Below are positions 11,704-46,400 of a stretch of 64,000 nt of DNA, one piece after another (the first letter of the stretch is position 1; every line of letters begins with the position of its first letter). The stretch is from contig JAJFJF010000012.1 of NCBI GenBank assembly GCA_021774255.1, forward strand, positions 30,259 to 94,258, written 5' to 3'. This stretch comes from Gammaproteobacteria bacterium. Lineage in GTDB: Bacteria; Pseudomonadota; Gammaproteobacteria; JAJFJF01. Under the pieces are notes generated by a model, which worked only from the letters and a program-made list of their open reading frames with translations, had not been told where the DNA came from and made no database searches. Both the position numbers and the translations under genes were made by a program.

Positions 11704-12047
11704 CGCGCCATTATACCCGCAAAGCCCCCTTCAAATCACGGGCTTAGCATAAATAAGTCATTTTGATAGCTGATTTTTGTGCATCGCTTAACTTCAACAA
11801 AACTGGATCGCTGGCCCCTAAAAAAATAGAGAATGGCGCTCTAATTTTCGCGAAGCTCCGCAAAACAACACAGGTGTTCCAGCCCATGCCAAAGCAGAGT
11901 TGACCCTACAGCATTACAGCTTATATCCTCTAACGCCTCAAATTTGCTTTTAAGCACGAAGAAAAGTTAAATTATAATTTTCTTTTAAATCAACGGGTTA
12001 TTTTATATTTTTAAGATTTTTATTGTTAAGATGGGAAAAACAAAAAA

Positions 12048-12081
12048 AACATACATGCCGATGTTACACCATATATATAGA
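12048..12081 (+). promoter_or_regulatory. conserved regulon promoter motif copy (aCATACatgccGATGTTACACCATATATATAGA)
   Basis: It is one of 7-8 copies of the same ~35-bp motif in the window. It lies 40 bp upstream of the ATG at 12122. Confidence 0.55.
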
Positions 12082-12121
12082 AACAAACGTTAAAGCGAAT
12101 TATTAATCAACACCTATCAAC

Positions 12122-12466
12122 ATGAACATCTGTTATCTTAATCTTCGTGACATGACTCCTGGGATGTTCATCTACGAGCGGCCTATCTCAGCCGAGGATA
12201 TCGACCCAAATAGCCTCAGCCCGGAACAAGTTTTCTTGGTTAAGGGTGGGGAGCTGGAATACAAGCTTCTGGAGCGGGTCTCTGACGGTAAACTCTTCCT
12301 GCTCTATTCGCACACTCGAACGACTGACACGGCTGAAGGGCCACATCCACGCATCACATTCAAGCACGCCCTACGCGGTGTTCCTCCTGCTTGGAAAGCG
12401 CCAGCTAAAGGGCCTTCTAAAAGTGAGTCTTGGTTTGGCAGTTGGTTTGGCAGTTGGTTTGGTTAA
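12122..12466 (+). CDS. small hypothetical protein with C-terminal SWFG x3 tandem repeat
   Basis: The 114-aa ORF sits downstream of the conserved motif. Its 3' end has three tandem 12-bp units AGTTGGTTTGGC encoding SWFGSWFGSWFG. I recognise no family. Confidence 0.45.
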   Translation: MNICYLNLRDMTPGMFIYERPISAEDIDPNSLSPEQVFLVKGGELEYKLLERVSDGKLFLLYSHTRTTDTAEGPHPRITFKHALRGVPPAWKAPAKGPSKSESWFGSWFGSWFG

Positions 12467-13360: not shown

Positions 13361-13639
13361 TCCTTCACACAGGGGAACGCAAACACTTGTAGATGCACTC
13401 TTTAAAATCAAGCCTATTTTTGCTTGTTTTTCACTAACTCACTCTGCATAACCAAATAACCAAGCGTAGCCCCCCCTTCCACTTTGAATTCGTTTTGCCC
13501 CCTTGAAAGCACTTAGATTCATTTTGAGAACAAAATTTGTTCTCAGGATTTTACCGTGGGTTTAAAGAAAAAATTTGTTATACTCCTTGCGGTTAGAGAT
13601 TTAATCTCTGAACGACTTACTACAATAGGAGCTGATTAT

Positions 13640-14386
13640 ATGAAATTAAGGACCCTTGCACTCAGTTTAGTGGCCGTATTTGCGACGCAAGCGTGTGCTG
13701 ATAATAATCGAGATATTTCTCTTGATACCCAACAAGAAAAAGTAAGCTACAGTATTGGTGTGGACATTGGCCGTTCTTTAACTGCCAGTGAAATTGACAT
13801 CGACATGGATAGCTTTAGCCAAGGTATCAGCGATGGTGTCGCGGGCGATGACACCCTTCTCACTGATGAAGAAATGGAACAAACATTAATTTCTTTCCAG
13901 GAAGAACTTATGGCAGAGCAACAAGCTGAACAACAAGCCATTGCAGATGCCAATGCGGCACAAGAAGATACTTTCTTGTCTGCTAATGCAGCAAGAGAAG
14001 GTGTGGTTGTTTTAGACAGCGGCTTACAATACAGCATCATTGAAGAAGGTACTGGCATTAGCCCTGATAGCAACGACATTGTGTCTGTACACTATCAAGG
14101 CACACTGCCTGATGGCACCGTGTTTGATAGCTCTTATGAGCGCGGCGAACCTGCTAGCTTCCCCGTTAACGCTGTGATCAGCGGCTGGACAGAAGCCCTG
14201 CAACTCATGCAAGTAGGCGATAAATGGGAACTCTATATCCCTTCTGATTTAGCGTATGGTGAAACAGGCACTGCCGGCGTGATTGGCCCTAATCAAGTGT
14301 TGATCTTCGAAGTTGAATTATTAGATGTAGATCAAATAGAAAATGCTGCAGCTGTTTCAGTAGAAGATGGCGTTGATATGAGCTAA
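13640..14386 (+). CDS. mip: FKBP-type peptidyl-prolyl cis-trans isomerase, Mip/FkpA-like lipoprotein/periplasmic
   Basis: The ATG at 13640 is preceded by an AGGAGC ribosome-binding site. There is a signal peptide (MKLRTLALSLVAVFATQACA). An FkpA-type dimerisation helix is present. The FKBP domain is GVVVLDSGLQYSIIEEGTG..VHYQGTLPDGTVFDSSYERGEPASFPVN.VISGWTEALQLM..GDKWELYIPSDLAYGE, which resembles Legionella Mip. Confidence 0.85.
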   Translation: MKLRTLALSLVAVFATQACADNNRDISLDTQQEKVSYSIGVDIGRSLTASEIDIDMDSFSQGISDGVAGDDTLLTDEEMEQTLISFQEELMAEQQAEQQAIADANAAQEDTFLSANAAREGVVVLDSGLQYSIIEEGTGISPDSNDIVSVHYQGTLPDGTVFDSSYERGEPASFPVNAVISGWTEALQLMQVGDKWELYIPSDLAYGETGTAGVIGPNQVLIFEVELLDVDQIENAAAVSVEDGVDMS

Positions 14387-14415
14387 TCGTTAGCTTGTTT
14401 TTCGCGTTTTAATCT

Positions 14416-14448
14416 AAAAAGGGGGATGTTATATCCCCCCTTTTTTTT
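14416..14448 (+). terminator. rho-independent terminator (GGGGGAT-GTTAT-ATCCCCC + T8)
   Basis: A GC stem-loop is followed by a run of 8 T, 30 bp after the mip stop. An A-run precedes the stem, so the structure could work in both directions. Confidence 0.6.
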
Positions 14449-14720
14449 GTAGGGGCACGGCGTGCCGTGCCCTTCGCCAAAAATCACCTCTCACCTCTTG
14501 CTGCTCTTCACTATCCTGCTGGGCGAGCGCCGCTCGCCCCTACACATAAAACGTAGGTCATCCGTAGCCTTAGGAGCTCATCTTCCTAGCTTTTACCTGG
14601 AACTCATCGCTACAGAATACTCGGGCCACGGAAGGGCCAGGAAAGTTTTGTGTAGGGGCGAGCGGCGCTCGCCCAGCAAGGTTACGTAGTGCTGAAACGG
14701 CACGCTGTGTCCCTACAGGC
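14449..14720. repeat. GC-rich nested-palindrome element (MITE/REP-like): outer IR TGTAGGGGCACGGCGTGCC / GGCACGCTGTGTCCCTACA, inner perfect 27-bp IR CTGGGCGAGCGCCGCTCGCCCCTACAC
   Basis: The inverted repeats were seen directly in the sequence. A related short copy is at 37722..37808. The element lies between the convergent mip and rluB genes and is flanked by T-runs. Confidence 0.5.
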
Positions 14721-23483: not shown

Positions 23484-23564
23484 CCTGCCTTGGCAAAATA
23501 CTCTCTCCTGATCAATGGCGTAACAAGCAAAGGTAAGATACAAACACGCCATTCAAACGCGAAC

Positions 23565-23600
23565 GCAATAAAAAAGCCAGCTCAAGCAATTGTTTTATAT
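23565..23600 (-). promoter_or_regulatory. conserved regulon promoter motif copy (minus strand; CTTACC-N7-GTTACGCCATTGATCAGGA variant)
   Basis: It has TTAC boxes 13 bp apart. It is ~80 bp upstream of the corrected start at 23483. It matches the core consensus at 14 of 22 positions. Confidence 0.4.
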
Positions 23601-23784
23601 GAAATTAATCCACCCTTCCCTTTGCTTGTCATAACGGTTGTATGCCCTAAAAAACAGAGCCGCCCTGCCCCTAGCATCGCTTTTTCAGGCAACTGTAACG
23701 ACGAGAAGTGCCTACAGAAAGAGTGGCGAGAAAATTTACCCACCCGTGTTACGCTACTAGAAAGGAAAGCGTATTAAAAAAGAA

Positions 23785-29756: not shown

Positions 29757-29892
29757 ACCCTAAAGGCAAAAGCTCATCCAATACACTTACCTCTCACTAT
29801 TAATATTTAACCAAGACAACCTGCCTCACTCCCCCTAGAACAACCCATATTTTTATTATGTTAAATGTGATGTGTTTTTTTAGGGCCTTCTC

Positions 29893-30202
29893 TTAAAAAA
29901 ACTGTTTGCCTATTTCAGTATGTCTGACCCAATGCGCGCGGGGCTTTTGTGTCCGAACACTAGGCGCATCGGCACGGCATCGGAACCCTCTCCAAGGGAA
30001 CCCGTTCCATAGGCATTCCTGATACAACTGAGCCCGTAAAATAGGCAGTTGTGATGATGTCGAGGTTAAAACCCACCAGGCCACCCACAAAGTCACCAGA
30101 GACCATGACGGAGCCCTTTGCATAAGCACGCATGGTCATGTCGCTGCTAAAATTCACTAGGCCAGCCACAAAGTAAGCAGAGCTCATTGAAGAGCTGCTC
30201 AT
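29893..30202 (-). pseudogene. degenerate/frameshifted fragment of a GLUG-like gene
   Basis: Two overlapping short ORFs sit in different frames. One encodes FVGGLVGFNLDIITTAYFTGSVV. A regulon motif lies ~75 bp upstream. The remnant is far too short for a complete module. Confidence 0.5.
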
Positions 30203-30277
30203 GATATAAGTAAAATTATTTTAATAACAAAAACGAAAAGTATGAGAAAACCTGTTTCAAAAAATAACTTTAACTTT

Positions 30278-30313
30278 TCTAAATATATAGAGTAACATCG
30301 ACGTGTATGTATG
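30278..30313 (-). promoter_or_regulatory. conserved regulon promoter motif copy (minus strand, 19/22 core match) driving the GLUG remnant
   Basis: The reverse complement reads GTAGCATACATACACGTCGATGTTACTCTATATATTTAGA. Confidence 0.5.
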
Positions 30314-30354
30314 CTACCCCTCGAACAGTGAACAGGCCATGAACGCTTAGAACT

Positions 30355-30389
30355 AAACTTACCCGCGGATGCTACACCATATATATAGA
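30355..30389 (+). promoter_or_regulatory. conserved regulon promoter motif copy (21/22 core match), divergent from the previous copy
   Basis: The sequence is AACTTACCCGCGGATGCTACACCATATATATAGA. It ends 10 bp before the ATG at 30400. Confidence 0.5.
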
Positions 30390-30399
30390 GAGAAAAAAA

Positions 30400-30905
30400 A
30401 TGGGGACGCGGGGGAAGAGAGCGCATCCGAGCTGGGCAGCGTTTTTTTCTGAGGATACGGACAACAGGCCCTCCCTTCCTTCGTTTTCGAAGGGGCCAAC
30501 TGCAGGTCGCCCGCTTGAGCGGCCTCCTTGCGATGACGAAGCAACGGCGGATGAGGCCCCAGAGGACCAAGCGTGGATTAGTTACTGTCAAGAGCTTGTT
30601 GAGTTGGAGCACCAGAAGAACACCGACAACAACAGAGATTCGCCCATTGACGGTTCCTTCTTGAATAGGCAGGACCCCTATGAGTGGCTGATTAACCACT
30701 TGACTTGGATCTACATTATGAGGCGCTGAACGCTGCCGAACGTCTTTTTTGGATGCTGGACTACTCAGAGGACGAACCCACAGAGGAAGAGAAGAGAAAG
30801 CTGGCGAGTAGCACGAGAGCATACAACTTTTCTCACACTTGGGCGGCCGATAGTGAGAGAGAAAGCCTCTACTCATTTTTTTATTCAAAGAATTTTATTT
30901 TATAA
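30400..30905 (+). CDS. hypothetical small acidic protein, apparently frameshifted (30400..30729 and 30705..30905) - possible pseudogene or sRNA
   Basis: It sits downstream of the motif. The segment is locally GC-rich. The two ORFs overlap in different frames. The opposite-strand 229-aa ORF is low-complexity and R/K-rich and looks spurious. Confidence 0.3.
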
Positions 30906-30995
30906 GGAAAGGATATCAAAGGGTATTTTAAAAACAGCAAAATTAAGTTGTAAATCTGACTTTATTTTGTAATGACTGAGGGTTAGTATTTAATA

Positions 30996-31072
30996 TGGCG
31001 CGCCCGGAGAGATTCGAACTCCCGACCGCCTGGTTCGTAGCCAGGTACTCTATCCAGCTGAGCTACGGGCGC
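30996..31072 (-). tRNA. argV: tRNA-Arg (anticodon ACG)
   Basis: The reverse complement reads GCGCCCGTAGCTCAGCTGGATAGAGTACCTGGCTACGAACCAGG...GGTTCGAATC...CCA. It has a cloverleaf with a CT-ACG-AA anticodon loop. It is very similar to E. coli argV. Confidence 0.9.
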
Positions 31073-31118
31073 GTTGTCAGTTTATGTCAGAAATGTGTGG
31101 CCGGAGAGGTCGGGATCT

Positions 31119-31178
31119 GCAGACTCTCTGCGTAAACTAGGTTTAGCTTACCACAATAGTGGCGGAGAGGGAGGGATT
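31119..31178. repeat. 60-bp direct repeat copy 1: duplicated tRNA-Ser 3' end (19 nt) plus 41 bp of 3' flank
   Basis: It is identical to 31300..31359. It contains TGGCGGAGAGGGAGGGATT, the 3' acceptor/T-arm of tRNA-Ser, but no rest of the tRNA. Confidence 0.7.
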
Positions 31179-31299
31179 GCCTCCGGGCTCCTGCCCTACG
31201 GCCCTTCGGGGCGGCTGCGCCGACCCAAATCGCTGTCCTGCGATTTGGTCGAACCCTCTGCTCGGGTTCTCATCCCTCTGCGAGTTAAAAATAAACACC

Positions 31300-31359
31300 G
31301 CAGACTCTCTGCGTAAACTAGGTTTAGCTTACCACAATAGTGGCGGAGAGGGAGGGATT
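31300..31359. repeat. 60-bp direct repeat copy 2 (overlaps the intact tRNA-Ser 3' end)
   Basis: It is identical to 31119..31178. Confidence 0.7.
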
Positions 31360-31431
31360 CGAACCCTCGATGGAGTTTTGCCCCATACTCCCTTAGCAGG
31401 GGAGCGCCTTCAGCCACTCGGCCACCTCTCC
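31341..31431 (-). tRNA. serV: tRNA-Ser (anticodon GCU), long variable arm
   Basis: The reverse complement reads GGAGAGGTGGCCGAGTGGCTGAAGGCGCTCCCCTGCTAAGGGAG...GGGTTCGAATCCCTCCCTCTCCGCCA. It is 91 nt and close to E. coli serV. Confidence 0.9.
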
Positions 31432-31684
31432 AATTCAGAATCATTTCTGGAGCGGGATAATATCATGTTTGACAGCCAAGCAGTAGCCAGAAAAAGCAGG
31501 AATGAGAGGTATGGTGTGGAATCCGTGTCTCGGCGCTCGCCGGGCCGAAGCAGTGCTTCGGCTTATCCCGGCTCGCCCTGCCATCCATCGCGCAAATAAG
31601 GTAGGTCAAGCCGGGGCCCCAAGGTATGACAGCAATCTGGGGTAGCCCGGTCGAAAGAATATTATGTTACGTAGGCAGCAGGAT

Positions 31685-33422: not shown

Positions 33423-36029
33423 TTATTGGTGTTTTTTATTTTCACTGATCCAAGCAGGTAGTGAAGCTAAAGCTGCTTCTAAGTGCTCAGGCTGATTGCC
33501 GCCAGCTTGGGCAATATCAGGGCGGCCTCCGCCTTTGCCACCCACTTGAGTAGCAACGAAATTAACGAGATCGCCTGCTTTAATCTGAGCAGTGAGCCCT
33601 TTACTCACCCCCACCACAACACTCACTTTTCCATCATTCACCGCCGCGAGCACAACAATCGCCGTGCCCAGCTTATCAACCAGTTTGGGCACCATCTCGC
33701 GCAGGGTTTTAGCATCAGCGGTTATTTCTTGCAGCAGCAGTTTTGCACCGTCTGTTTCTTGCGCGGCAAGCAGCAAATCTTGTATCGCAAACTGTGCTAA
33801 TTTACTTTGCAATTTAGTCTGTGCTTTTTCTAAATCACGTTGGCGTTGCTGTAACTGTGTGACTTTTGCTTCCACTTCGTCTCGCTTGCAATTTAAGGCA
33901 CCAGAAAGTTGTTTAATTTGCGATTCAGCATTCAGCACCCAATCCAGCGCTACTTGGCCCGTCACCGCTTCAATACGGCGAATACCGGCCGCCACCGCTT
34001 CTTCTGTGCTTATCTTCAGCAAACCAATATCACCGGTGCGATCAACATGCGTACCACCACACAGCTCCATTGAAAAATCACCCATGTTTAATACACGTAC
34101 TTGATCAGCGTATTTCTCACCAAATAGCGCCAGCGCGCCTTTTTTAGTTGCTTCTTCCGGCGTCATGATATCCGTCACCACGGCACTATTCAGGCGGATC
34201 TGCGCATTCACCAAGCTTTCAATGTCGTGTAGCTGCTCTGTAGAAAGTGCTTTGGGATGCGAAAAGTCAAACCGCAGACGCTGCGCATCGACTAACGAGC
34301 CTTTCTGTATCACGCCCTCCCCTAAGACATGTCGCAATGCTGCATGCAAAAGGTGGGTAGCAGAGTGATTTAAACGCGTCGCTTGGCGCGTGCGGGGGTC
34401 AACTTCAGCCGTGACCGTCGCACCTTGCTGCAACTGCCCTTTTTTGAGCGTACCGATATGCAGATGGACGCCCGCTTGCTTTTGCGTGTCACGCACCACA
34501 AACAAGCCATGATCAAGCAAATGGATCTCACCTTGATCACCCACTTGCCCACCACTTTCGGCATAAAAAGGCGTTTTTTCAAGCACGATCACAGCGTCAT
34601 CGCCTTCTGCTAAGGTATCGACTTCTACCCCATCACGAAATAATGCCGGGGCGCTGGTTTCAACACGTAAATGATCATAGCCCACAAAATCAGTTGACAA
34701 CTTTTCATCCAGCGCCAAGGCTTTTTGATCATAAAAATGACTGCTCGCACGTGCGCGTGCACGTTGCTGCTCCATTTCTTTTTCAAAGCCTGGCATGTCC
34801 AGGGTTAAGTCACGCTCACGCGCAATATCAGCCGTGAGGTCAACCGGAAAGCCATAGGTATCGTATAAACGAAATACAACATGCCCCGGGATCTGCTTAC
34901 CTTTTAAATCTCGCAAGGCATCTTCTAAAATACCCATGCCTTGTTCAAGCGTCTTGGCAAACTGCTGCTCTTCGGTTTGCAGTACTTCTTCGCATAGTGC
35001 TTGCGATTGCGCGAGTTCAGGGTAGGCTTCCCCCATCTCTTTGACGAGCACAGCCACTAACTTCGAGAAGAACGGATCCACCACGCCCAATTGATGACCA
35101 TGACGAATAGCGCGCCGGATAATACGACGCAACACATAACCCCGTCCTTCATTGCTAGGCGTCACGCCATCGAGAATTAAGAACACGCAGGCGCGAATAT
35201 GATCTGCAATCACCCGCAGCGAGCTGTTGTCCAGTTCACGTGTCTGGGTAATATCGGCAACCGCCTGAATAATATTTTTGAAAAGATCGATGTCGTAATT
35301 GCTATGCACACCTTGTACAACAGCTGCAATACGCTCCAAGCCCATCCCCGTATCCACAGAAGGTTTGGGTAAAGAATGCAATTCACCGTTCGCATCACGG
35401 TTATACTGCATAAAGACAAGATTCCAGATCTCAACGTAACGCTCGCCTTCTTCATCCGGGCTACCCGGCGGACCACCGGCGACGTCAGGCCCATGGTCGT
35501 AGAATATTTCCGAACACGGCCCACAAGGACCCGTGTCACCCATGGCCCAAAAATTATCTTTCTCGCCACAGCGCGAAAAGCGCTCAGGATCAACTTTCAG
35601 CTCTTTTAGCCAGATATCAGCGGCTTCATCGTCATCTTGATAGACAGTCACCCATAAACGCTCTGGCGGCAAGCCCAAAACGCCTGTTAAAAACTCCCAG
35701 GCATAGGCAATGGCTTCACGTTTAAAATAATCTCCGAAACTAAAATTACCGAGCATTTCAAAGAATGTGTGGTGGCGCGCGGTATACCCTACATTTTCCA
35801 GATCGTTATGCTTGCCCCCTGCCCGTACACAGCGCTGGCTACTCGTTGCTCGCTGATAACCGCGGTTATCTTTCCCCAGAAAGCTGTCTTTGAACTGCAC
35901 CATGCCCGCATTAGTAAAGAGCAAGGTGGGATCATCCAGTGGCACCAGCGAACTACTTGGCACAATTTGATGGTCTTTTTGAGCAAAATAGTCAAGAAAG
36001 GTTTGGCGGATCTGATTAACTGTTTTCAT
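33423..36029 (-). CDS. alaS: alanine--tRNA ligase
   Basis: The 868-aa protein has the class II core. The editing-domain motifs HSATHLLH and CGGTHV are present. The C-terminus is a DHHA1-like domain. Confidence 0.95.
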
Positions 36030-36483
36030 GATGGGGTGTTTCTTTTAGCGCGCGACGTATTTGATCGCTAGTGAACCCTCGGTAACGAAGGAAATTTATT
36101 TGTTTAGCGTGTTCCTGAACGGTTGTTGTTTGGTTTGTCTCCACGTCAAAACGCTTTAGATAAGCTTGGCGAGCATGCGCTATCCATTGGGCTTCATCAA
36201 GCGCTAAAGCGGCCTCACTTAAAACGCTTTCAATGCCTCGCTCTTGCAGCTCAACACGAATACGTACGGGCCCATAGCCGCGCACGATACGAGCACGCAC
36301 ATACGCTTCGCAAAAACGCTGTTCGCTGAGTAAGTCTTCTTCCAGTAATAAGGCAATAGCAGCATCAATCTCTGTTGCTTGCTCTGGAAAGCGCTGCAAT
36401 AACTTTGTTTTAAGCTCTTTTTGAGAGTGTTCGCGGCGAGCAAGCAGGCGCATGGCTGCTTGCTGTATCTCCACCGCTACCAT
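36016..36483 (-). CDS. recX: recombination regulator RecX
   Basis: The 155-aa protein is immediately downstream of recA. The alaS start overlaps its 3' end. It has the three-helix repeat architecture. Confidence 0.85.
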
Positions 36484-36486: not shown

Positions 36487-37530
36487 TTACTCAGCCGCTT
36501 CCGCTACGCCTTCTTCAGCTACTTTAGAAGTTGCATTAAGGTCAGGCAATAATATCCCTCTTAATTTACCTTCAATTTCAGCTGCAATCTCTGGATTTTC
36601 TTTCAAAAAGGTGCGCACATTGTCTTTACCTTGACCAATACGCTGATCGCCATAGCTATACCAAGCACCGGATTTATCGACAATCCCTTCTTGCACACCT
36701 AAAGAAATGAGCTCACCCTCGCGCGAAATACCTTCGCCGTATAAAATCTCAAACTCAGTTTGCTTAAACGGCGGCGCCACTTTGTTTTTCACGACTTTCA
36801 CACGCGTTTCATTACCGACTACTTCATCGCCTTTCTTAATGGCACCAATACGACGAATATCCATCCGTACTGAAGAGTAGAATTTTAAGGCATTACCACC
36901 GGTCGTGGTTTCAGGGTTACCAAACATCACGCCGATCTTCATACGTATTTGGTTAATAAAGATAACTAAGCAATTGGAACGCTTAATATTTGCTGTCAGT
37001 TTACGTAAGGCTTGAGACATGAGGCGGGCTTGTAACCCCATGTGACTGTCGCCCATATCGCCTTCAATCTCTGCTTTTGGCGTGAGCGCTGCCACCGAGT
37101 CAACCACCAACACGTCAACGGCCGCTGAACGCACGAGCATATCGGTAATTTCCAAAGCTTGCTCACCGGTGTCAGGCTGTGAGACGAGCAAATCATCTAC
37201 ATTCACTCCGAGTTTTCCGGCATAAATTGGATCGAGAGCATGCTCCGCATCCACAAAGGCCGCGGTACCGCCTGCTTTTTGGCATTCCGCAATGACTTGC
37301 AATGTGAGTGTGGTTTTACCCGATGACTCTGGCCCGTAAATTTCCACTACCCGGCCTTTTGGTAAGCCACCAATGCCCAAAGCAACATCTAGCCCCAAAG
37401 AACCTGTTGAAATACTTTCAATATTGCGCGAGACGGTTGAATCGCCCATACGCATCACCGAGCCCTTGCCAAACTGGCGGTCTATCTGACCCAATGCTGC
37501 TTCGAGTGCTTTTGCTTTATTGTCATTCAT
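36487..37530 (-). CDS. recA: recombinase RecA
   Basis: The sequences [23 protein letters not shown]...[24 protein letters not shown] are canonical RecA. Confidence 0.95.
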
Positions 37531-37721
37531 GCTCTTAATCTACCTCAATTTTAGTTGTGCCGAGTGGCATAAGGGGGAAGATTATTATCACATACAAACT
37601 ACTAGCGCGATAGTGCCTGCCTGAGTGGATCTGCCTTTGTCATAGCGCTAAGCTGGTTTTTAATGCCTTAGATAGCAGCCTGCTTACTCTGATGATCTCA
37701 AAAAGTCTGTCATTTTATTGT

Positions 37722-37808
37722 AGGGACACGGCGTGCCGTGCCCTCTCGAACGCAAAATGCGAACTCAGAGCTGGGCGCAGACGCCGTGCCCCTGCAAAAA
37801 ATTTATAA
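37722..37808. repeat. short MITE/REP-like palindromic element related to 14449..14720 (termini TTGTAGGGACACGGCGTGCCGTGCCC ... GACGCCGTGCCCCTGCAAAAAA)
   Basis: The terminal inverted repeats share the GTAGGGRCACGGCGTGCC core with the element downstream of mip. Confidence 0.45.
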
Positions 37809-37840
37809 CTTACCTGACGATGTTACCTCATATGTATAGA
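37806..37840 (+). promoter_or_regulatory. conserved regulon promoter motif copy (TAACTTACCTGACGATGTTACCTCATATGTATAGA)
   Basis: It matches the core at 19 of 22 positions. It lies 55 bp upstream of the ATG at 37896. Confidence 0.5.
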
Positions 37841-37895
37841 CCCCAAACAGCCCACAGAAAAAACGTGAAAAAAATCTTGCTACCCAGACAAGAAA

Positions 37896-38702
37896 ATGGC
37901 TCCTTTTTTCGCCCGTGTCGTTGTTTTGTTCGCGGCTTTCTCGGCTCTTGAGCAAGTATTAGCAGCTTCATTGCCTAGTGAAGCACTGCCTGGAAGCATC
38001 AACAGCACTGCCACTATCTCGCCAGTACCAAGCGCTGCCCCCTCCCCAACAGAAGGTCCTAGTCCAGGTGCTTCGTCTGAGTCCGAGGAAGCAGGGAGTG
38101 ACTTTAGCGGTAGCCCTGAATTGTTACTTATTTTTTGTGTGCTTGCACTGCTTCTTCCCTGCTTAGTTTCTCTTGTGACTTATAGTTTAAGTTCTCAAAG
38201 AGAAGACGCCTCTGGAAGCCCGATTGAGAGTTATAGCTGCTATGTTTGCTTGAACTATTGGTACCTTGCCTATTTCAGAGGCCTAGAGAATTTCCTAAGT
38301 CTAATGGTAATGCGCTATTTGTCTTATGCACTTGCCCTACTATGCACCATACTGAATTTTATTGCCTTACGTTCCAAAAACAGTGATCTGCTTGTGGGCG
38401 CACTGATTGTTTTTATCCTATGGTTTGGACTCGTTGTTGATGCCGTGCATTACGAAAAACTTGTGGGTACTAACCTGAATTTTCACTATTTTTTGTGCTT
38501 GCTCCCTCTCATTCTGTTTGCATCGGCAAGCGGTTTAGTCGGACATGCTTTTGAACAGGATGAAGATGATAAGCGAAAAGCCTCTGTTATAGGGTTGGCT
38601 TTTGTATTCCTTTTTTTCTTAATCTTCTTTTTATATTTGAGCCACAGTAAAATGCTCCACGAAATACGTACAGGGTGGTGGGGTTACCGTCCCATTAACT
38701 AA
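37896..38702 (+). CDS. hypothetical membrane protein (signal peptide, Ser/Pro-rich acidic linker, ~6 TM helices)
   Basis: The 268-aa protein begins MAPFFARVVVLFAAFSALEQVLA. The linker reads SAAPSPTEGPSPGASSESEEAGSDFSG. Hydrophobic helices follow. I recognise no family. It is inserted between recA and pncC, downstream of the regulon motif. Confidence 0.55.
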   Translation: MAPFFARVVVLFAAFSALEQVLAASLPSEALPGSINSTATISPVPSAAPSPTEGPSPGASSESEEAGSDFSGSPELLLIFCVLALLLPCLVSLVTYSLSSQREDASGSPIESYSCYVCLNYWYLAYFRGLENFLSLMVMRYLSYALALLCTILNFIALRSKNSDLLVGALIVFILWFGLVVDAVHYEKLVGTNLNFHYFLCLLPLILFASASGLVGHAFEQDEDDKRKASVIGLAFVFLFFLIFFLYLSHSKMLHEIRTGWWGYRPIN

Positions 38703-38944
38703 TACTCTCCTCTTCACCGCAGGCAAGCAAAATTCACCCAATCAACAGGCGTTAAGATTATATTTTTTAGTTAAGAAGTGGATTTAAAGACTAAATTTAA
38801 GTCTATGATTTGAATAAAAGTGCAGGTAATAGTGCAATTGGATTGTTAATTCGCAACACAAAAAAAACATTATTTTTAGCTAGAAAAATAACTTTTAAAG
38901 ACATCCCTAAGCCAAAATATAGGTTTTGTCCCTGATAGGTATTT

Positions 38945-39439
38945 TCAGGAAGCGCTGCTAAGCAACTCATCCATCCACACTAAAGCAGCCAATACAGACT
39001 GTTCACGAATGTGCTCACGATCGCCTTTCAAATTTAACTTTTTAGTTTGAACTGTTCCAGCAGGCAGCTTCACCGCGAGCCAAACAAGCCCCACTGGCTT
39101 CTCGGTATTATCGGCATCAGGGCCCGCAATACCGCTCACCGCAACACTCACTTGGGCATGGCTATGTTTCAGCGCGCCTTCGGCCATGGCCACCACCACC
39201 TCTTCGCTCACCGCACCGTGCTTTTCAATGACTGCAGCAGGCACACCCAGCATTTCTTGCTTAGCAAGATTGCTGTACGTCACAAAACCTCGTTCAAACC
39301 AATTAGAACTCCCCGGCACTGCGGTGATCGCTTGCGATACCCACCCGCCTGTACAGGACTCGGCTGTTGCAAGCATCCAGCCCTTTTCTTTAAGACGCTC
39401 CCCGAGTTTTTTGGCGAGTAAATATTCTTCTTTTTCCAT
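38945..39439 (-). CDS. pncC: CinA C-terminal domain protein / NMN amidohydrolase PncC
   Basis: The start was set at MEKEEYLLAKKLGERLKEKGWMLATAESCTGGWVSQAIT, which carries the hallmark ATAESCTGG. With this start the gene does not overlap the upstream ATPase gene. Confidence 0.8.
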   Translation of the reverse strand: MEKEEYLLAKKLGERLKEKGWMLATAESCTGGWVSQAITAVPGSSNWFERGFVTYSNLAKQEMLGVPAAVIEKHGAVSEEVVVAMAEGALKHSHAQVSVAVSGIAGPDADNTEKPVGLVWLAVKLPAGTVQTKKLNLKGDREHIREQSVLAALVWMDELLSSAS

Positions 39440-39464: not shown

Positions 39465-40670
39465 CTAATAAATAAATCCAAAATAAGGCAGAGGGATTGT
39501 TTTATGGCTAGGCAGTAAGATGTCATCTTTTACTAAAAATGCATTTTTCTGCCCTTTAATTTGTGTAGTTGTTTTATTTTTCCCGCCAATCTCGAAAACA
39601 GCATCATCGATCTGGTAATCGCCTGCTTTGCTATGAAGGATCTCAAGGCCCGCCCCCTTAATAGACTGCACAAAAAAGAGCTCTCTAATAGTACCCAAAC
39701 CATCATCCTTGAGTGCATTTGATTGCAATGCATAGTGCAAGTTCGTATTACTTAAGAAAGCTTTCTCTGGTTTTCTCAAACCAACGTTCCCTGTTTCAGC
39801 TGGATACAGAACTTCAACCAACCCGGTTTCATGTAAAATATTTAAGTAATTAGCGGCTGTTTTATCGTCAATGCCCATGTTTTTGCTGATGTTATAGGTG
39901 CTAATTTTGCCCGGTGGTATTGTTGACAAAAATCTTAAGATTTTGCTGAAATAGCGCAAATTAGTTGTTTTTAACTGATAAAAATTTGCAATGTCCTCAT
40001 AAATGGTTTTTTCTACAATACTTAATATTTTCTCATAGTACGACAACGCATCTTCCATAAAAAATGGATAGAAACCTTGTTGTAGATATTGCTTGAAATG
40101 CCCCAACAACTTAGGGAAATTTGAAATATTCTCTCGTGGCATTTTGCCCAAAAGTAATTGAGAAAAATCAACTATTGGGAAATTTTCAGCTTGTGAAAAA
40201 TTGAGATACTCCCTAAATGATAAGCCCGGCAAACGATATAACTTGGCTCGTCGTGATAAATCATAACTACCCTTAATGAGATCCAGGCTAGAACTACCTG
40301 AAAACACTATTTTTAGCGAAGGAAAAGCATCATATAAGTTCTTTAGCTCCTGGTTCCAGTTTTTGTAACGATGGATCTCATCAATAAAAAATAACTCAAT
40401 CCCTTCCGTAAGCACTAAATCTTCAACAAATTGATAAATAGTGACATCATTAAAATAAATATGATCAGCAGAAAAGTAGAAAACTTTACTCCTATCGTCA
40501 CATTTATTTTTTATATACTGCAGTAGCAATGTCGTTTTTCCCACACCTCGTGGACCAACAAGGCCAGTCAGACGATTATTGATATTAAAACTCGAATAGA
40601 GGTAGCGGTAAAAATCACTATCCACTTCATCTAGTAAGCGTTCAAATATCAGTCCTAAAGATTTCTGCAC
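39465..40670 (-). CDS. AAA+ ATPase with DUF4143-like C-terminal domain (second paralog; GTG start)
   Basis: The Walker A motif is GPRGVGKTTL and the Walker B motif is FFIDEIH. The architecture matches 1062..2255. The AT-rich codon usage suggests foreign origin. Confidence 0.7.
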   Translation of the reverse strand: MQKSLGLIFERLLDEVDSDFYRYLYSSFNINNRLTGLVGPRGVGKTTLLLQYIKNKCDDRSKVFYFSADHIYFNDVTIYQFVEDLVLTEGIELFFIDEIHRYKNWNQELKNLYDAFPSLKIVFSGSSSLDLIKGSYDLSRRAKLYRLPGLSFREYLNFSQAENFPIVDFSQLLLGKMPRENISNFPKLLGHFKQYLQQGFYPFFMEDALSYYEKILSIVEKTIYEDIANFYQLKTTNLRYFSKILRFLSTIPPGKISTYNISKNMGIDDKTAANYLNILHETGLVEVLYPAETGNVGLRKPEKAFLSNTNLHYALQSNALKDDGLGTIRELFFVQSIKGAGLEILHSKAGDYQIDDAVFEIGGKNKTTTQIKGQKNAFLVKDDILLPSHKTIPLPYFGFIY

Positions 40671-40932: not shown

Positions 40933-43335
40933 ATGACAAGCGCGACCGCAAATATCGAACAACATACCCCCATGATGCAGCAATATCTGCGCATAAAGGC
41001 AGAGCATCCAGACAAATTGCTGTTTTATCGCATGGGCGATTTCTACGAGTTTTTCTTTGAAGACGCAAAGCGTGCTGTCAAATTGCTCGACATCACCCTC
41101 ACCCATCGTGGCCAATCAGGGGGTGAGCCTATCCCCATGGCCGGCGTGCCCTATCATGCGGTAGAAGGCTATTTGGCCAAGCTTATTCGGCTCGGCGAAT
41201 CCATGGCGATTTGCGAACAAGTGGGCGATCCCGCGCTGGCTAAGGGCCCTGTCGAACGCAAAGTTGTGCGCATTGTCACACCCGGCACCGTCACCGATGA
41301 AGCTTTATTAGAAGAACGACAAGAAAATTTACTCGTGGCCATTAGCGAAGCAAAAGGTCATTTTGGTGTGGCCAGCCTCGACATGGGCAGTGGTCGCTTC
41401 CATGTATCAGAAGTGGATAATCTGGAAAGTGTCAGCAGTGAACTGGCACGTTTACAGCCAGCAGAATGTTTGTTGAATGAAGCCTCTGAGGCCCCCATTG
41501 AAATAACCGCCAGCACACAACGCCGCCCGGCACACACCTTTGACATAGATCATGCCACCCGCTTGCTGACCACACAATTTGGCACACAAGATTTATCGGG
41601 TTTTGGTTGTGAGCATTTGCCACTTGGGATCAGCGCTGCCGGTGCCTTATTGCATTATGCGCAAGAAACACAGCGTACCGCCCTGCCTCATATTCGTGGT
41701 TTACGGGTACAATCTTCTGATGACAGTGTCACGCTTGATGCCACCACGCTGCGTAATTTAGAATTACTCACGAATCTTTCTGGCGGCAAAGAGCACACGC
41801 TGGCTTGGGTGCTCGATCATACCGCGACCCCGATGGGCAGTCGCTTGCTGCGGCGCTGGATTAAACGGCCGTTAAAAGATCACAACACGCTGACTCGCCG
41901 ACACCAAGCGATCCATACATTACTTTCAAAACAGACTTATGAAAATATCACGCCCTTGCTTAAAAGCATCGGCGATATCGAGCGCATTTTAGCCCGCATT
42001 GCCTTGCGCAGCGCCCGCCCACGCGATTTGGTCGGTTTGCGGCAAGCCTTAAGCACCCTGCCTGCACTGCAAAAAATACTAGGCACGTTAGACAATCCTT
42101 TTCTGCAGAAACTGAGTACCCAAATTGGTGAATTTCCCGAGTTATTTGCTCTGCTTGCCCGTGCAATTGAAGCGTCCCCTGCGCAATTGATCCGCGATGG
42201 CGGCGTGATTGCCGATGGGTTTGATGCCACACTCGATGAACTGCGCCAAATCAGTGAACATGCCGGGCAATATTTAATTGATTTTGAGGCCACCGAGCGT
42301 GAGCGCAGCGGCTTGCCCACATTGAAAGTCGGCTTTAACCGTGTGCATGGTTATTATATTGAAATCAGCAAAGCGCAAGCCGGCCAAGCACCTGAGCATT
42401 ACACACGTCGTCAAACGCTCAAAAATGCCGAGCGCTATATTACGCCGGAACTCAAAACCTTTGAAGACAAAGTACTCAGCAGCCGCGAACGCGCGTTAGC
42501 GCGAGAAAAAGCCCTCTATGAAAGCTTATTAGACGATTTACTAAACGTATTACCTGAACTGCAACAATGCGCACATAGCCTGGCGGTGCTGGATGTTTTA
42601 ACAAACCTGGCTGAACGTGCCGACATACTTCATTTTACTTGCCCTACTTTTACCGAGCAGCCTGGCATTCATATCGAGGAAGGTCGCCACCCCGTCATCG
42701 AGCAGGTACAGTCCGCGCCCTTTATTCCAAACGATGTGATACTCAACGAGGCTGATCGCATGCTGATCATCACCGGCCCCAATATGGGCGGTAAATCAAC
42801 GTATATGCGGCAAACCGCGTTGATCACTCTGCTGGCCTATATGGGCAGCTTTGTGCCTGCAAAAGTCGCCCAGTTTGGGCCGATTGATCGGATTTTTACG
42901 CGCGTGGGCGCCGCGGATGATTTAGCCAGCGGCCGCTCGACGTTTATGGTGGAGATGACAGAAACCGCCAACATTCTGCTTAATGCCACGGCACAGAGTT
43001 TGGTGTTATTAGATGAAGTTGGGCGTGGTACCAGCACCTACGATGGCTTGGCGCTTGCCTGGGCGGTCGTCACGCATCTTGCGGAAGAAACAAAAGCCTT
43101 TACGCTCTTTGCTACCCATTATTTTGAACTCACCAGCCTACCTGAATCGATTAAAAACATCAGCAATGTGCATCTTGATGCTGTCGAGCACAATGATGAT
43201 ATTGTCTTCCTGCACAAGGTTAATCCTGGCCCCGCCAGCCGCAGCTATGGCCTACAAGTTGCCAAACGTGCGGGGATTCCTGAAGCTATTATTCAGCAGG
43301 CAAAAGAAAAGTTAAATCAACTAGAACAGCATTAA
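40933..43335 (+). CDS. mutS: DNA mismatch repair protein MutS
   Basis: The 800-aa protein has a mismatch-binding N-terminus ([30 protein letters not shown]). The Walker A motif is GPNMGGKST. The C-terminus is the standard one. Confidence 0.95.
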
Positions 43336-43499: not shown

Positions 43500-46400
43500 C
43501 TAAAGCGTCGACATTTCAATATCACCCGGCAACGTGCCTGCTCTGGGTTTATCAGCTAACGCTTGCTTCCCAAAGCATCTTCCTTTTAACTGCCATAATT
43601 GCTGGCGCATCGTTGGCAAATCATAAAACAATAACTTGCTCAGAAAAAAGAGGGATGCGGTAAAAGCAACAACGACCTTAATCAACACAAAAGTATTGCT
43701 CCCCTTGCGAGTCAAAAACAATACCCCAATTGTAAATTGCGGCACATCTTCCAGGGAGAAGTTAGCGATTTTCATTTTGGCAAAACGTTGGTCGATGTAT
43801 TCAACACCCCACTCCAAGCGAACCCATTCTGGGCTTAAAATAGGCAAGGTAAGTAACCAGTAAGGACATTCGGATAACGACTTCGGATACCAACGACCAC
43901 GCACAGTCCGCATACCCCACAAACCAATTCCATACGATGCAAATAAAAACAGGGTCGAATAGAGGGCTAGCTGAGCTTCATCATTAGCCAGCAATTCACG
44001 GATCAAAAAGGCGTCTGAGATCCTATCGGCCATCTCCAGCATAAAACCAAATACAGTGACAAGTTGATAGCGCTGCAGGCGAAGTTGAATATGCTCAAGC
44101 TGTGCACCAAACATGTTCAGCAACGAACAAGAGGGCGCGTTCTGAAGCAGTTCTTCATTTGCGTTGCCCAACTGACGTTGCGACAAATACTGGTTCAGTT
44201 GGTTCCAGTAAACATCATTTTGAGGCAAGAGCTCATTATTAGCGAGTTCAACTATCCGCAAGACCGTTTGCCTTTGCAAGGCCCGCATCAGCAAGCGCAC
44301 GCTAGCAACATCAAGCAAATTGTCACTCAAATCCAACTTGGTTAATTGGGCAGGCAAACCAGGCCCTTCGAGCCAACCACGCAAACCCACCACGCTCAGA
44401 CTGTTGCGCGCCAAATTGATTTCAGTTACCACGGTATTGTTAGAAAGTGCTTGTGCTAGCTTTTGAAGCTGTACATCCGTGAGATTTTGTCCGCTCAAAT
44501 CAAGGTGTGTGAACTGCGGTGCATTCTCTTCAATGGCCTGCAAGAACAAGTCAAAACTCGCAGGCCAAACAGCGTAATAAGGGCTCGCTCGTACAAGCAA
44601 CTGTGCATCTACACGCTTGCCTTGCATGATAGCCATATCAATGGCCGTGTAGCCTTTGGGTGAACGCACAAACAGATCTGCACCGTCGCCAACAAATTTT
44701 TGGGCCTCGTAAAAATCACCAAGACAAACAGCCAGCATCGGTGGCGTAAGGCCAGAACAGTTGACTAGATTTATCTCAGTGTGGTCTTTTGCTGCCACAA
44801 GATCATGCTCTGATAACAAACTCAGTGATAAACCCGCTTTCAGTTCTTCATCAATTTGCTGCTGATACTGTTGCTCAATGGCCTCACTGTTTGGAATATA
44901 TTGATTGACGCCCTTGTGACCATTGTTGATTGCTGCTTTTAACGCTACTTCAAATGCGAACAAGGAGTCTTGCACAGACATCTTGGAAACAAGGTACGCC
45001 ACGACCTCCAGGTGCCCACCTTGCGCAGCCCACCATAAAGGCGTGTGGCCTTCAGCATCTTCTGCCATGACAGAAGCGCCCTTCTCTTCAATCTGCCACT
45101 TGACGAGCGAGAGGCTGCCGATTTGCGCGGCAGCATGCAATGGATGAAAGACGGCTTGCTTCTGACGACGACGCCACATGAGCCAGGCAAATCCCAGCGC
45201 GGCTGCACCCGCCGTCACACCAATATAGCTATTGAGCTGCGTCTGGTACAAAGCGGGTGGGATAGGACAAGCATCAACAGGTTTGATCGGTATCATGCTT
45301 GTCTGAAATTGCAAGTAAGGATAGCTATCGCCTTTGGCAATTTGCCATATCTGCTCAAAATCCCAGCCTTGATAAGTGTTGGGCTGGTACATTGCTTGGG
45401 TCTGTCTGCGATAGCGGCGGCGATAGCTGTAATACTGATCGTTCACACCGGGCAAAGACTGCCCCGTCGTCGAGACATCCCAGTAAGACTGGCTCACCAG
45501 CGCAGTATCCAAAAATGAGCCTGTCAGAGCGCCTACACTATTACCTTGCACACAACCTGAAACATAACAATTGCTAAAGCGTCCGCTGTTTTGGCCAATC
45601 AATCCACCGACATTTTGCTCACCTGTTGTGCTCGTGACGGCATAGCTATCAATAAGTTCTCCGCTGTGCACACCAATCAGGCCGCCCGTTTGGCGTACGC
45701 CGATCACGCGTGACTGGGCAAAACACTGAGTGATCTCTCCTAGGTTATGCCCAACCAGTCCACCGGCCGTTTGTGCTGCTGCCACTTCGCCCAGCGCATA
45801 ACTGCTCAAGATATCACCACTATTTCTACCCACTAATCCGCCGGCGGTGTCTTGTGCTGTCACAGAACTGTTACTATGGCTAAATATTAACGTGCCTGAA
45901 TGGTCCGCAATTAAGCCACCCGCTTCTTCAAGAGCCGTGACGTCTGCTTTGCTGTGACAAGACGATACCTCACCTTGGTTCCGAGCAATGAGGCCCGCCA
46001 CTGTGAAATTGCCATTCACCACCGCACTTGCTGAACAATCTGTTACTGTGCCTGTGTTTTCGGCGATGAGGCCTGCAACCGTATCGATACCGTCAACCTG
46101 ACCTGTAAAGTGACTATTGCTCACCTCACCCTGGTTAACACCGAGCAGGCCTGCGCCGATAGCCACCGTCAGACTGACGCTACCGGTCACCTGGCAATGA
46201 GAGACACTTCCTTGATGATAGCCAACCAATCCACCAATGATTTCTTGACCGTGAATATTCACTTCCTCAAGAATAACGTTACGGATCTCCGCCGTGGCTG
46301 CGGTGTAACCAAAAAGACCCAAGCGCGTCTTGTCGGGCTGGTTCATGTAGAGAGAACGAATGCGATAGCCCTGCCCATCAAAAACGCCTGAAAAAGGTTC

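What the first reader, a model, noticed from the sequence alone, without database searches (positions are those of the whole stretch)
37722..38702. Small islet (MITE-like element + regulon motif + novel membrane protein) inserted into the conserved pncC(cinA)-recA pair
pncC/cinA and recA are adjacent in many bacteria. Here they are separated by an 87-bp GC-rich palindromic element, a regulon-motif promoter, and a 268-aa protein with a signal peptide, a Ser/Pro-rich acidic linker and ~6 TM helices. That pattern resembles insertion of a cargo gene under the regulon promoter, possibly mobilised by the MITE-like repeat.
Basis: partly seen in the sequence, partly recalled or inferred. Interest (0 to 1): 0.5.

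Follow-up and report, generated by a model that had tools for sequence, protein, structure and literature searches.

The report
Orphan membrane gene plus REP hairpin
Between recA and pncC/cinA this bacterium carries a common selfish DNA hairpin (a REP doublet) and a real but nearly unique membrane-protein gene, which uses the same promoter as the genome's giant secreted proteins; the hairpin did not bring the gene in.

Summary
recA (36487-37530, -) and cinA/pncC (38945-39439, -) are 1,414 bp apart. The gap holds a GC-rich inverted repeat, a recurring promoter motif and a 268-aa ORF with a signal peptide, an acidic Ser/Pro linker and six predicted helices.

- **The "MITE-like" element is a REP doublet (REPIN).** It has a 5' GTAG followed by a palindrome, paired with an inverted copy. 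Its 18-mer occurs in more than 120 unrelated metagenome contigs. In three of them it sits in or beside an IS200-like Y1 transposase gene.
- **It does not flank the ORF.** It lies on one side only. Of eight promoter-motif sites in the window, only this one has a REP nearby. Mobilisation of a cargo gene is not supported.
- **The promoter motif is real.** WTACMY-N6-GYTAC gives 8 hits against 0.3 expected. It drives four large GLUG/ankyrin proteins, a GLUG fragment, two small orphan ORFs and this ORF.
- **The ORF is a real gene of a three-member family.** The other two members are both from contigs of the same length (120,434 bp), probably one genome. It has no Pfam, NCBIfam, PDB, plasmid or phage match.
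- **The gene is lineage-specific here.** None of 61 proteobacterial cinA-recA loci has it. The junction is variable, and the six most similar loci carry thpR there.

This is an ordinary accessory gene plus an independent REPIN. Interest is modest.

The parts
36487..37530 (-). recA, the left flank of the interval
   Evidence: PF00154 E 2.8e-145 and PF21096. The best relatives in GTDB species representatives are only 84-86% identical.
37531..37719 (.). 189 bp upstream of recA; must hold recA's own promoter because the neighbouring gene is divergent (inferred)
   Evidence: Read from the sequence. Its length is close to the median cinA-recA gap (~190 bp) in 61 other loci.
37720..37743 (+). REP unit: GTAG + GG + palindrome GCACGGC-GT-GCCGTGC + CC
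   Evidence: pair I8. The same 18-mer lies at 14449(+) and, with one mismatch, at 14699-14716(-). It matches the published REP definition (PMC3686654).
37773..37795 (-). Degenerate inverted partner REP (GCAGGGGCACGGCGTCTGCGCCC). Together with 37720-37743 it forms a 76-bp REPIN hairpin.
   Evidence: Inverted repeat I1. Fold -25.8 kcal/mol, z -5.9. Recovered at up to 4 mismatches at position 37795(-).
37804..37841 (+). Shared promoter motif. Direct repeats TTACCT (37810-37815) and TTACCT within GTTACCT (37822-37828), 13 bp apart. They are followed by a -10-like TATGTA (37831-37836) and a conserved TAGA (37837-37840), 55 nt before the ATG.
   Evidence: (51.5 bits against a shuffle maximum of 8.0). 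The reading as -35/-10 elements is inferred from spacing.
37896..38702 (+). ORF268: signal peptide (aa 1-24), acidic Ser/Pro-rich linker (aa 25-73), six predicted transmembrane helices (aa 74-262)
   Evidence: The annotated frame has the best codon score of the six frames (0.02 against -0.48 or lower). Two remote homologues share the architecture. Helices come from AlphaFold.
38703..38944 (.). AT-rich (~34% GC) spacer between the convergent 3' ends of ORF268 and cinA. No REP, no repeat shared with the left boundary, no thpR relic.
   Evidence: Only weak terminator-like hits.
38945..39439 (-). cinA/pncC (CinA C-terminal domain only, 164 aa), the right flank
   Evidence: PF02464 E 9.7e-60.
14449..14716 (.). 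The only other REP cluster in the window. Two REP types are nested as A> <B ... B> <A, between the convergent FKBP isomerase and pseudouridine synthase genes.
12045..12082 (+). Same promoter motif, 40 nt upstream of orphan ORF114 (12122-12466)
   Evidence: No Pfam or NCBIfam match for the ORF.
30277..30390 (.). Two divergent copies of the motif. 30277-30314(-) drives an 80-aa GLUG fragment. 30353-30390(+) drives orphan ORF109.
51813..51892 (.). Two divergent copies of the motif, driving the giant GLUG/ankyrin genes 43500-51713(-) and 51983-60505(+)
   Evidence: (29.9 and 35.4 bits from a matrix that excluded them).
23520..23752 (.). Two further direct-repeat sites (23520-23536 -, 23736-23752 +) upstream of the divergent GLUG/ankyrin genes of 1404 and 1297 aa. 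The region downstream of the repeats differs from the other six sites.

Best explanation
The recA-cinA interval holds two independent things.

(A) A REPIN. It is two REP units (GTAG + GG + palindrome GCACGGC-GT-GCCGTGC) in inverted orientation that fold into one long hairpin. It belongs to a cosmopolitan REP class that, in other organisms, is tied to IS200-like Y1 (RAYT-type) transposase genes. It most likely inserted as a selfish, non-autonomous element into the divergent promoter region. It sits 189 bp upstream of recA and about 9 bp upstream of the ORF268 promoter.

(B) A real, lineage-restricted gene. ORF268 encodes a Sec-exported envelope protein with a cleavable signal peptide, a disordered acidic Ser/Pro tether and a six-helix membrane domain. 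It is transcribed from an activator-type promoter. That promoter has two WTACMY/GYTAC direct repeats 13 bp apart, covering the -35 region and the spacer, and then a -10-like TATNTN plus TAGA. Seven other genes in the window have the same promoter, mostly giant signal-peptide-bearing GLUG/ankyrin proteins. ORF268 is therefore probably switched on together with that set of surface or host-interaction proteins.

The gene occupies a junction that varies across Gammaproteobacteria and often holds thpR. It is an accessory gene at a permissive site. It is not cargo delivered by the repeat.

Shown: the repeat anatomy, the motif statistics and orientation, the coding frame, the family of three, the gene's absence from 61 other loci, and the REP-Y1 transposase association elsewhere.

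Inferred: signal-peptide cleavage and topology, the activator mechanism, co-regulation, and the independence and order of the two insertions.
For: REP/REPIN identity:
- Three copies of the 18-mer in the window against 0.06 expected. A second REP type with the same GTAGGGG head occurs twice.
- Inverted doublet and hairpin, z = -5.9.
- The published definition is GT[A/G]G plus a palindrome, and REPINs are inverted doublets (PMC3686654).
- The same 18-mer occurs in more than 120 metagenome contigs of 31-73% GC.
- In three of those contigs it lies inside or directly next to an ORF that hits PF01797 Y1_Tnp. Two of the three pass the Pfam cut-off and the third falls just below it.
- About 15 inverted doublets of 49-187 bp occur there.

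Promoter:
- 4 exact-type sites against 0 expected.
- The held-out sites score 30-35 bits, against a shuffle maximum of 8.
- 8 of 8 direct-repeat hits lie upstream of an ORF and point towards it. Seven are intergenic. The eighth is intergenic only if the 1404-aa ORF starts at an internal ATG.
- The downstream genes are GLUG/ankyrin proteins and orphan ORFs.

Real gene:
- The annotated frame scores best by a wide margin.
- Exhaustive HMMER over 1.84 billion representatives finds two homologues, at E 3e-7 and 3e-6. The pairwise composition-adjusted E-value is 5e-14.
- Both have the same signal peptide, Ser/Pro linker and membrane-domain layout, with conserved W122, F127, R128, Y144 and G178.

Variable junction:
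- cinA-recA gaps in 61 loci range from 34 to 5,183 bp, and 26 exceed 400 bp.
- 17 loci carry a LigT/ThpR gene in the gap.
- All six of the most similar loci carry it.
- L019 has an unrelated orphan ORF on the opposite strand at the same place.
Against: - No RAYT gene lies in the 64-kb window, and the rest of the genome is not available. A cognate transposase in this genome is therefore unproven.
- Only five or six REP units are visible.
- ORF268 has a weak codon score (0.02, against 0.28-0.35 for core genes) and no obvious Shine-Dalgarno sequence.
- The structure models are low-confidence (pLDDT 60 and 53). Topology and signal-peptide cleavage rest on hydropathy and inspection, not a dedicated predictor.
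- The regulator is unknown, and the promoter reading (-35/-10 assignment) is inference.
- No close relative exists: RecX is at most ~50% identical, and RecA has no partner at 90% or above. Neither the time nor the direction of gain can be determined.
Confidence: 0.6

Rival explanations
1. ORF268 with its promoter is cargo that was moved into the pncC-recA junction by the MITE-like repeat, as a composite or hitch-hiking mobilisation.
For: The repeat directly abuts the promoter, about 9 bp from its A-rich upstream edge. REPs are substrates of Y1 transposases (PMC3686654). The ORF is absent from all other surveyed loci.
Against: There is a REP on one side only. Nothing REP-like lies in 38703-38944, and no direct repeats bracket 37720-38944. 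Seven of the eight sites with the same promoter have no REP nearby. The other REP cluster lies between housekeeping genes. No transposase or integrase lies in the interval. The protein has no match on plasmids or phages.
Confidence: 0.05
2. Recent horizontal acquisition of ORF268, independent of the REP, into a permissive junction. It possibly replaced an ancestral thpR.
For: The closest available loci have thpR at this position, and this genome does not. The ORF's codon score is low. A second lineage-specific gene, an AAA_14/DUF4143 ATPase of 36% GC, sits in the neighbouring mutS-cinA junction.
Against: The ORF's GC3 (0.41) is close to that of core genes (0.43-0.50). It carries the genome's own regulon promoter, which argues for long residence or local assembly. 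No donor is found: there are only two distant homologues in 1.84 billion representatives. No thpR relic remains. The 'closest' loci are still only 40-48% identical in RecX, so the ancestral state is weakly inferred.
Confidence: 0.2
3. ORF268 is a spurious open frame, and the interval is just a long non-coding spacer with a promoter-like motif.
For: No Pfam, NCBIfam or PDB match. A weak ribosome-binding site. Low-confidence structure models. A low codon score.
Against: It is an 807-nt open frame in 44% GC DNA. The annotated frame is best by about 0.5 bits per codon. Two homologues of the same length and architecture exist in another assembly. A dedicated promoter motif points at it, 55 nt upstream.
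Confidence: 0.05
4. The REPIN is not merely selfish. It has been co-opted as a structural or regulatory element, such as an insulator or a binding site, between the divergent recA and ORF268 promoters.
For: It sits precisely between two divergent promoters, with A/T tracts on both sides. REPs bind host proteins in E. coli (PMC3686654).
Against: Nothing here tests it. The same REP class is scattered in unrelated contexts in many organisms. The hairpin lacks a T-tract terminator signature.
Confidence: 0.1

Closest known systems
REP / REPIN elements (repetitive extragenic palindromes mobilised by RAYT Y1 transposases; Pseudomonas, Stenotrophomonas, E. coli BIMEs)
   Same: A 5' GTAG followed by a GC-rich palindrome, about 24 nt per unit. 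Extragenic. Arranged as a closely spaced inverted doublet that folds into one hairpin. More than one REP type per genome. The unit resembles published Pseudomonas REPs such as GTAGGAGCGAGCyyGCTCGCGA (PMC3686654). Elsewhere the same sequence is linked to Y1_Tnp genes.
   Different: The identical 18-24-nt unit is found in contigs of 31-73% GC from unrelated organisms. Classical REP classes, by contrast, are described as lineage-specific and vertically inherited. In three contigs the REP lies inside the transposase ORF rather than flanking it. The copy number and the RAYT gene of this genome are unknown.
Activator-dependent promoters of host-interaction regulons in intracellular Gammaproteobacteria (for example PmrA-dependent effector genes of Legionella/Coxiella, or LexR1 targets in Legionella, PMC13555631)
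   Same: A conserved element lies at a fixed distance upstream of a -10-like box, shared by scattered and mostly lineage-specific genes. The tandem direct repeats covering the -35 region work like a response-regulator site. The fixed-distance principle is described in PMC13555631.
   Different: The sequence is different. It is WTACMY-N6-GYTAC with a 13-bp register. The PmrA tandem TTAATATT repeat (recalled from memory, not checked here) and the LexR1 inverted repeat do not match it. No Dot/Icm genes and no regulator have been identified. The targets carry Sec signal peptides.
Lineage-specific orphan genes at syntenic junctions (for example thpR or orphan ORFs between cinA and recA in other Gammaproteobacteria)
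   Same: A single small gene lies between conserved neighbours, with no mobility genes. Other lineages fill the same junction with other genes.
   Different: Here the gene is on the opposite strand, has its own regulon promoter, and belongs to a family of only three known proteins.

Membership tests
REP / REPIN | Conserved 5' tetranucleotide GT[A/G]G | tested here: met
   GTAG at 37720, 14449, 14716(-), 14543(-) and 14652. The partner unit at 37795(-) has GCAG, so it is degenerate. Definition from PMC3686654.
REP / REPIN | Palindromic region directly downstream of the tetranucleotide | tested here: met
   GCACGGC-GT-GCCGTGC (pair I8) and GCGAGC..GCTCGC in the second type.
REP / REPIN | Two REPs in inverted orientation, closely spaced, forming one hairpin | tested here: met
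   Arms 37714-37734 and 37781-37801. MFE -25.8 kcal/mol, z -5.9.
REP / REPIN | Extragenic and present in many copies per genome | tested here: inconclusive
   All units are intergenic. There are 3 units of type A, 1 degenerate unit and 2 units of type B, at two loci within 64 kb. The rest of the genome is not available.
REP / REPIN | A cognate RAYT (Y1 transposase) gene in the same genome, flanked by the REP | not testable with these tools
   No Y1_Tnp among the window's proteins. In metagenome contigs L114, L123 and L125 the same REP lies in or next to an ORF hitting PF01797, with 2 of 3 above the Pfam cut-off.
MITE (IS-derived miniature element) | Terminal inverted repeats with flanking target-site duplication | tested here: not met
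   The 'TIRs' are REP units. The flanks TTTATT and AAAAAA are complementary, not direct repeats.
Mobile islet / composite element carrying cargo | Repeats on both sides of the cargo, or a recombinase or transposase gene | tested here: not met
   There is a REP only at the left. No repeat is shared between 37531-37895 and 38703-38944. No such gene is present.
Mobile islet / composite element carrying cargo | Presence of the cargo on plasmids, phages or in unrelated genomes | tested here: not met
   No tblastn hit in plasmids or phages. Only two distant homologues, both on contigs of the same length.
PmrA-type regulon (Legionella/Coxiella) | Tandem TTAATATT-like repeats upstream of the -10 (consensus recalled from memory) | tested here: not met
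   The repeats here are WTACMY/GYTAC with 13-bp spacing. The logic is similar but the sequence is different.
Pfam DUF7789 (the only weak domain hit of ORF268) | Score above the gathering threshold (25 bits) | tested here: not met
   13 bits, E 0.099. The homologues P0006 and P0007 do not hit it.

The most novel reading that the evidence does not exclude
ORF268 and its two homologues define a previously undescribed envelope-protein family. It is a dedicated component of a host-interaction regulon of a deep-branching, probably host-associated gammaproteobacterium. It might be a membrane partner for export or anchoring of the giant GLUG/ankyrin proteins, or a protein that is itself delivered to a host-facing membrane. 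The shared WTACMY-N6-GYTAC promoter would then mark a new virulence-type regulon.
Probability: 0.15. Interest if true: 0.45.

Novelty: new member of a known kind. Interest (0 to 1): 0.3.

Why it matters
This shows that a layout resembling a mobile islet can come from two unrelated, ordinary processes: a REPIN insertion, and a lineage-specific gene sitting at a junction that is variable anyway.

Two things are useful beyond that:
- **A sharply defined promoter motif.** It ties an orphan membrane protein to the giant GLUG/ankyrin proteins. That gives a testable handle on gene regulation in a bacterium with no sequenced close relatives.
- **A widely shared REP.** The same 24-nt REP hairpin is present in very different organisms, sometimes inside Y1 transposase genes. 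This does not fit the usual picture of REP classes as lineage-specific.

Tried and rejected
- **Genomic context of ORF268 and its homologues.** Exact look-ups found no record for P0001, P0006 or P0007. The contig carrying P0006/P0007 could therefore not be fetched.
- **More family members.** The word-indexed search found only the protein itself. A profile of the three found nothing new. A metagenome scan with the profile found nothing.
- **Closest relatives through RecX.** The best hits are 47-50% identical and are not syntenic in an informative way.
- **Function from sequence or fold.**
  - Pfam and NCBIfam gave no match.
  - A PDB sequence-profile search gave nothing below E 0.5.
  - The AlphaFold models have pLDDT 60 and 53.
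  - A Foldseek search of the PDB gave only non-specific helical hits, with E at or above 0.1 and TM below 0.3.
  - The afdb50 library was unavailable.
- **Known RNA in the interval.** Rfam gave nothing meaningful.
- **Terminator role for the hairpin.** There is no T-tract, and it lies between divergent genes.
- **thpR relic in the interval.** None was found.
- **The REPIN on plasmids.** Only chance-level matches.
- **Literature search for the REP sequence.** No paper holds it.
- **Promoter as a sigma-28 type.** The GCCGAT-like core suggested this, but conservation extends 20 nt further downstream and no consistent TAAA lies upstream. Rejected by inspection of the alignment.
- **A first guess at 12-bp repeat spacing.** Wrong. 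The true register is 13 bp.
Full report
**Layout.** The region reads alaS (33423-36029, -), recX (36016-36483, -), recA (36487-37530, -) and a 365-bp intergenic stretch. Then come ORF268 (37896-38702, +), a 242-bp AT-rich spacer and cinA/pncC (38945-39439, -). Beyond that lie an AAA_14/DUF4143 ATPase (39465-40670, -) and mutS (40933-43335, +).

**The palindromic element.**
- The element is two units in inverted orientation. One is GTAGGGACACGGCGTGCCGTGCCC at 37720-37743 (+). The other is a degenerate partner, GCAGGGGCACGGCGTCTGCGCCC, at 37773-37795 (-).
- As single-stranded DNA the pair folds into one long hairpin (-25.8 kcal/mol, z = -5.9).
- The 18-mer recurs at 14449 (+) and 14699-14716 (-), which is 3 hits against 0.06 expected.
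- Those two copies bracket two copies of a second unit with the same head, GTAGGGGCGAGCGGCGCTCGCCC. That cluster lies between the convergent FKBP isomerase and pseudouridine synthase genes.
- A 5' GT[A/G]G followed by a palindrome is the published definition of a REP. Closely spaced inverted doublets are called REPINs (PMC3686654). Published Pseudomonas REPs such as GTAGGAGCGAGCyyGCTCGCGA look very similar.
The 80 fetched have 31-73% GC.
- None of them comes from a close relative of this organism. The best RecA match among them is 65% identical.
- In three contigs (L114, L123, L125) the REP lies inside or directly beside an ORF that hits the IS200-like Y1 transposase family PF01797. Two of the three pass the Pfam cut-off and the third falls just below it.
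- About 15 true inverted doublets of 49-187 bp occur in those contigs.
- The element is therefore a REPIN of a widespread REP class. It is not a MITE with cargo.
- No Y1 transposase lies in this window. Whether this genome has one cannot be tested here.

**The promoter motif.**
- The sequence downstream of the REPIN, ACTTACCTGACGATGTTACCTCATATGTATAGA, recurs upstream of ORF114 (12045-12082).
- It also recurs twice, divergently, at 30277-30390. These first four sites amount to 4 hits against 0.00 expected.
- A weight matrix built from those four sites recovers two more sites, between the divergent giant genes at 51813-51892, at 29.9 and 35.4 bits. The next-best site in the window scores 3.6, and the maximum in 20 shuffles was 8.0.
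- The upstream half is a direct repeat, WTACMY-N6-GYTAC, with a 13-bp register. It has exactly 8 matches against 0.29 expected. The pattern was partly derived from six of these sites.
- The two extra sites lie upstream of the divergent 1404-aa and 1297-aa genes. They are an independent confirmation.
- All eight sites lie upstream of an ORF and point towards it. One of them, at 23520-23536, falls inside the annotated 5' end of the 1404-aa ORF. It counts as upstream only if that gene really starts at an internal ATG, which its signal-peptide-like sequence suggests.
- The downstream genes are four large GLUG/ankyrin proteins, a GLUG fragment, two small orphan ORFs and ORF268. The large proteins begin with signal-peptide-like sequences.
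- From the spacing, the first repeat occupies the -35 position. The second lies in the spacer. A TATNTN box sits at -10, followed by a conserved TAGA. I read this as an activator-dependent promoter.
- Similar logic, with a different sequence, is described for effector regulons in Legionella (PMC13555631). The regulator here is unknown.

**ORF268.**
- The annotated frame has by far the best codon score of the six frames (0.02 against -0.48 or lower). It scores lower than core genes (0.28-0.35).
- The word-indexed search of 5.8 billion clusters found only the protein itself.
- Exhaustive HMMER over 1.84 billion representatives found two homologues: P0006 (256 aa, E 3e-7) and P0007 (272 aa, E 3e-6). 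The pairwise composition-adjusted E-value is 5e-14. The two are 33% identical to each other.
- Both are NCBI singletons on contigs of the same length, 120,434 bp. They are therefore probably paralogues in one genome.
- All three proteins share a signal peptide, a Ser/Pro-rich linker and the helical membrane domain. The linker has conserved Gly-Ser and Ser-Pro positions and reads SGSASVS...SP.PT in the two homologues. Invariant residues include W122, F127, R128, Y144 and G178.
- There is no match in Pfam, NCBIfam, PDB sequences, plasmids or phages.
- The AlphaFold models are all-helical but low-confidence. The fold search was uninformative.
- ORF268 is thus a real gene of a tiny, undescribed family. 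Export by the Sec pathway and the six-helix topology are inferred from the sequence.

**Inserted or ancestral?**
- RecA, RecX, CinA and the ATPase are all singletons at 90% identity in a 15-billion-protein collection. The nearest RecX is about 48-50% identical. No close relative is available.
- In 61 gamma- and betaproteobacterial loci that hold both cinA and recA, no ORF268 homologue is present.
- The junction is not fixed. Gaps range from 34 to 5,183 bp with a median near 190 bp, and 26 exceed 400 bp.
- 17 loci carry a LigT/ThpR phosphoesterase between the two genes. Those include all six of the loci most similar to this window.
- One MAG (L019) has an unrelated orphan ORF on the opposite strand at the same place.
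- No thpR relic remains in this window.
- The 189 bp between recA and the REPIN is about as long as a typical complete cinA-recA spacer.
- The gene is therefore lineage-specific at a permissive junction, and it may sit where thpR once was. When and how it arrived cannot be resolved.

**Was the repeat the vehicle?**
- No REP or remnant lies to the right of the ORF, and no direct repeats bracket the unit.
- Seven of the eight regulon promoters have no REP nearby. The other REP cluster flanks no regulon gene.
- The simplest reading is that the REPIN inserted independently into the divergent promoter region.

**Verdict.** The feature combines a new member of a known repeat class with a lineage-specific orphan membrane gene under a well-defined local regulon promoter. 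Interest is modest (0.3). The regulon motif and the wide spread of this REP class are the most reusable results.

Noticed in passing
Metagenome loci L086-L165; especially L123:2-611, L114:536-1114, L125:272-790: The REP unit GTAGGGGCACGGCGTGCCGTGCCC is identical in more than 120 metagenome contigs of 31-73% GC from unrelated organisms. In three contigs it lies inside an IS200-like Y1 transposase ORF, read in frame as 'GTARRAPT' just after the HUH motif. REP classes are usually described as lineage-specific, so this wide spread and the in-gene position are odd.
   Followed up: partly
window 39465-40670 (-); also 1062-2255 (-): A low-GC (36%) AAA_14/DUF4143 ATPase fills the neighbouring mutS-cinA junction. 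In 28 other loci that junction has a median length of about 200 bp. None of the 80 recA loci fetched holds a homologue of this ATPase. A very distant paralogue lies at 1062-2255. Both junctions of the mutS-cinA-recA block therefore hold lineage-specific genes.
   Followed up: partly
loci L001, L004-L006, L008, L010, L012, L018, L024, L029, L035, L042, L043, L055, L061-L063: 17 of 61 surveyed loci have a ~175-aa LigT/ThpR (2H phosphoesterase) gene between cinA and recA, on the same strand. All six loci most similar to this window have it, which suggests an ancestral cinA-thpR-recA order. No relic is found here.
   Followed up: yes
window 29760-31440: tRNA-Arg(ACG) lies at 30996-31072 (-) and tRNA-Ser(GCT) at 31341-31431 (-). 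A partial duplicate of the tRNA-Ser 3' end plus its flank appears to lie at about 31110-31175, judged only by eye from ORF translations. Next to tRNA-Arg is a small islet with two divergent regulon promoters. They drive a truncated GLUG fragment (29960-30202, -) and an orphan ORF (30400-30729, +) that may be frameshifted. This looks like a decayed integration site.
   Followed up: partly
window 2510-4027, 5927-7465, 19338-23552, 23785-27678, 43500-51713, 51983-60505: Six GLUG-motif proteins of 505 to 2,840 aa. Four carry ankyrin repeats, and most begin with signal-peptide-like sequences. They take up about 40% of the window, in three divergent pairs. A Fic/DOC protein (9167-10270) and a LuxR-type regulator (5031-5795) lie among them. 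The set suggests a host-associated lifestyle.
   Followed up: partly
window 23476-23552: The 1404-aa ORF probably starts at an internal ATG that gives MFGEIFLLFLLIEAACAQA, a signal-peptide-like sequence. The direct-repeat promoter site 23520-23536 (-) lies inside the longer annotated 5' end.
   Followed up: no
locus L019:8670-9416 (-): A MAG (Gammaproteobacteria RIFCSPHIGHO2_12_FULL_41_20) has an unrelated 248-aa orphan ORF on the opposite strand between cinA and recA, in a 1,326-bp gap. It mirrors the layout seen here. It has no Pfam match.
   Followed up: partly
locus L164:5139-5997 and window 13556-14472: In both this window and an unrelated metagenome contig, the same REP lies shortly downstream of an FKBP-type isomerase gene. 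The two isomerases are 47% identical. This is probably coincidence.
   Followed up: no
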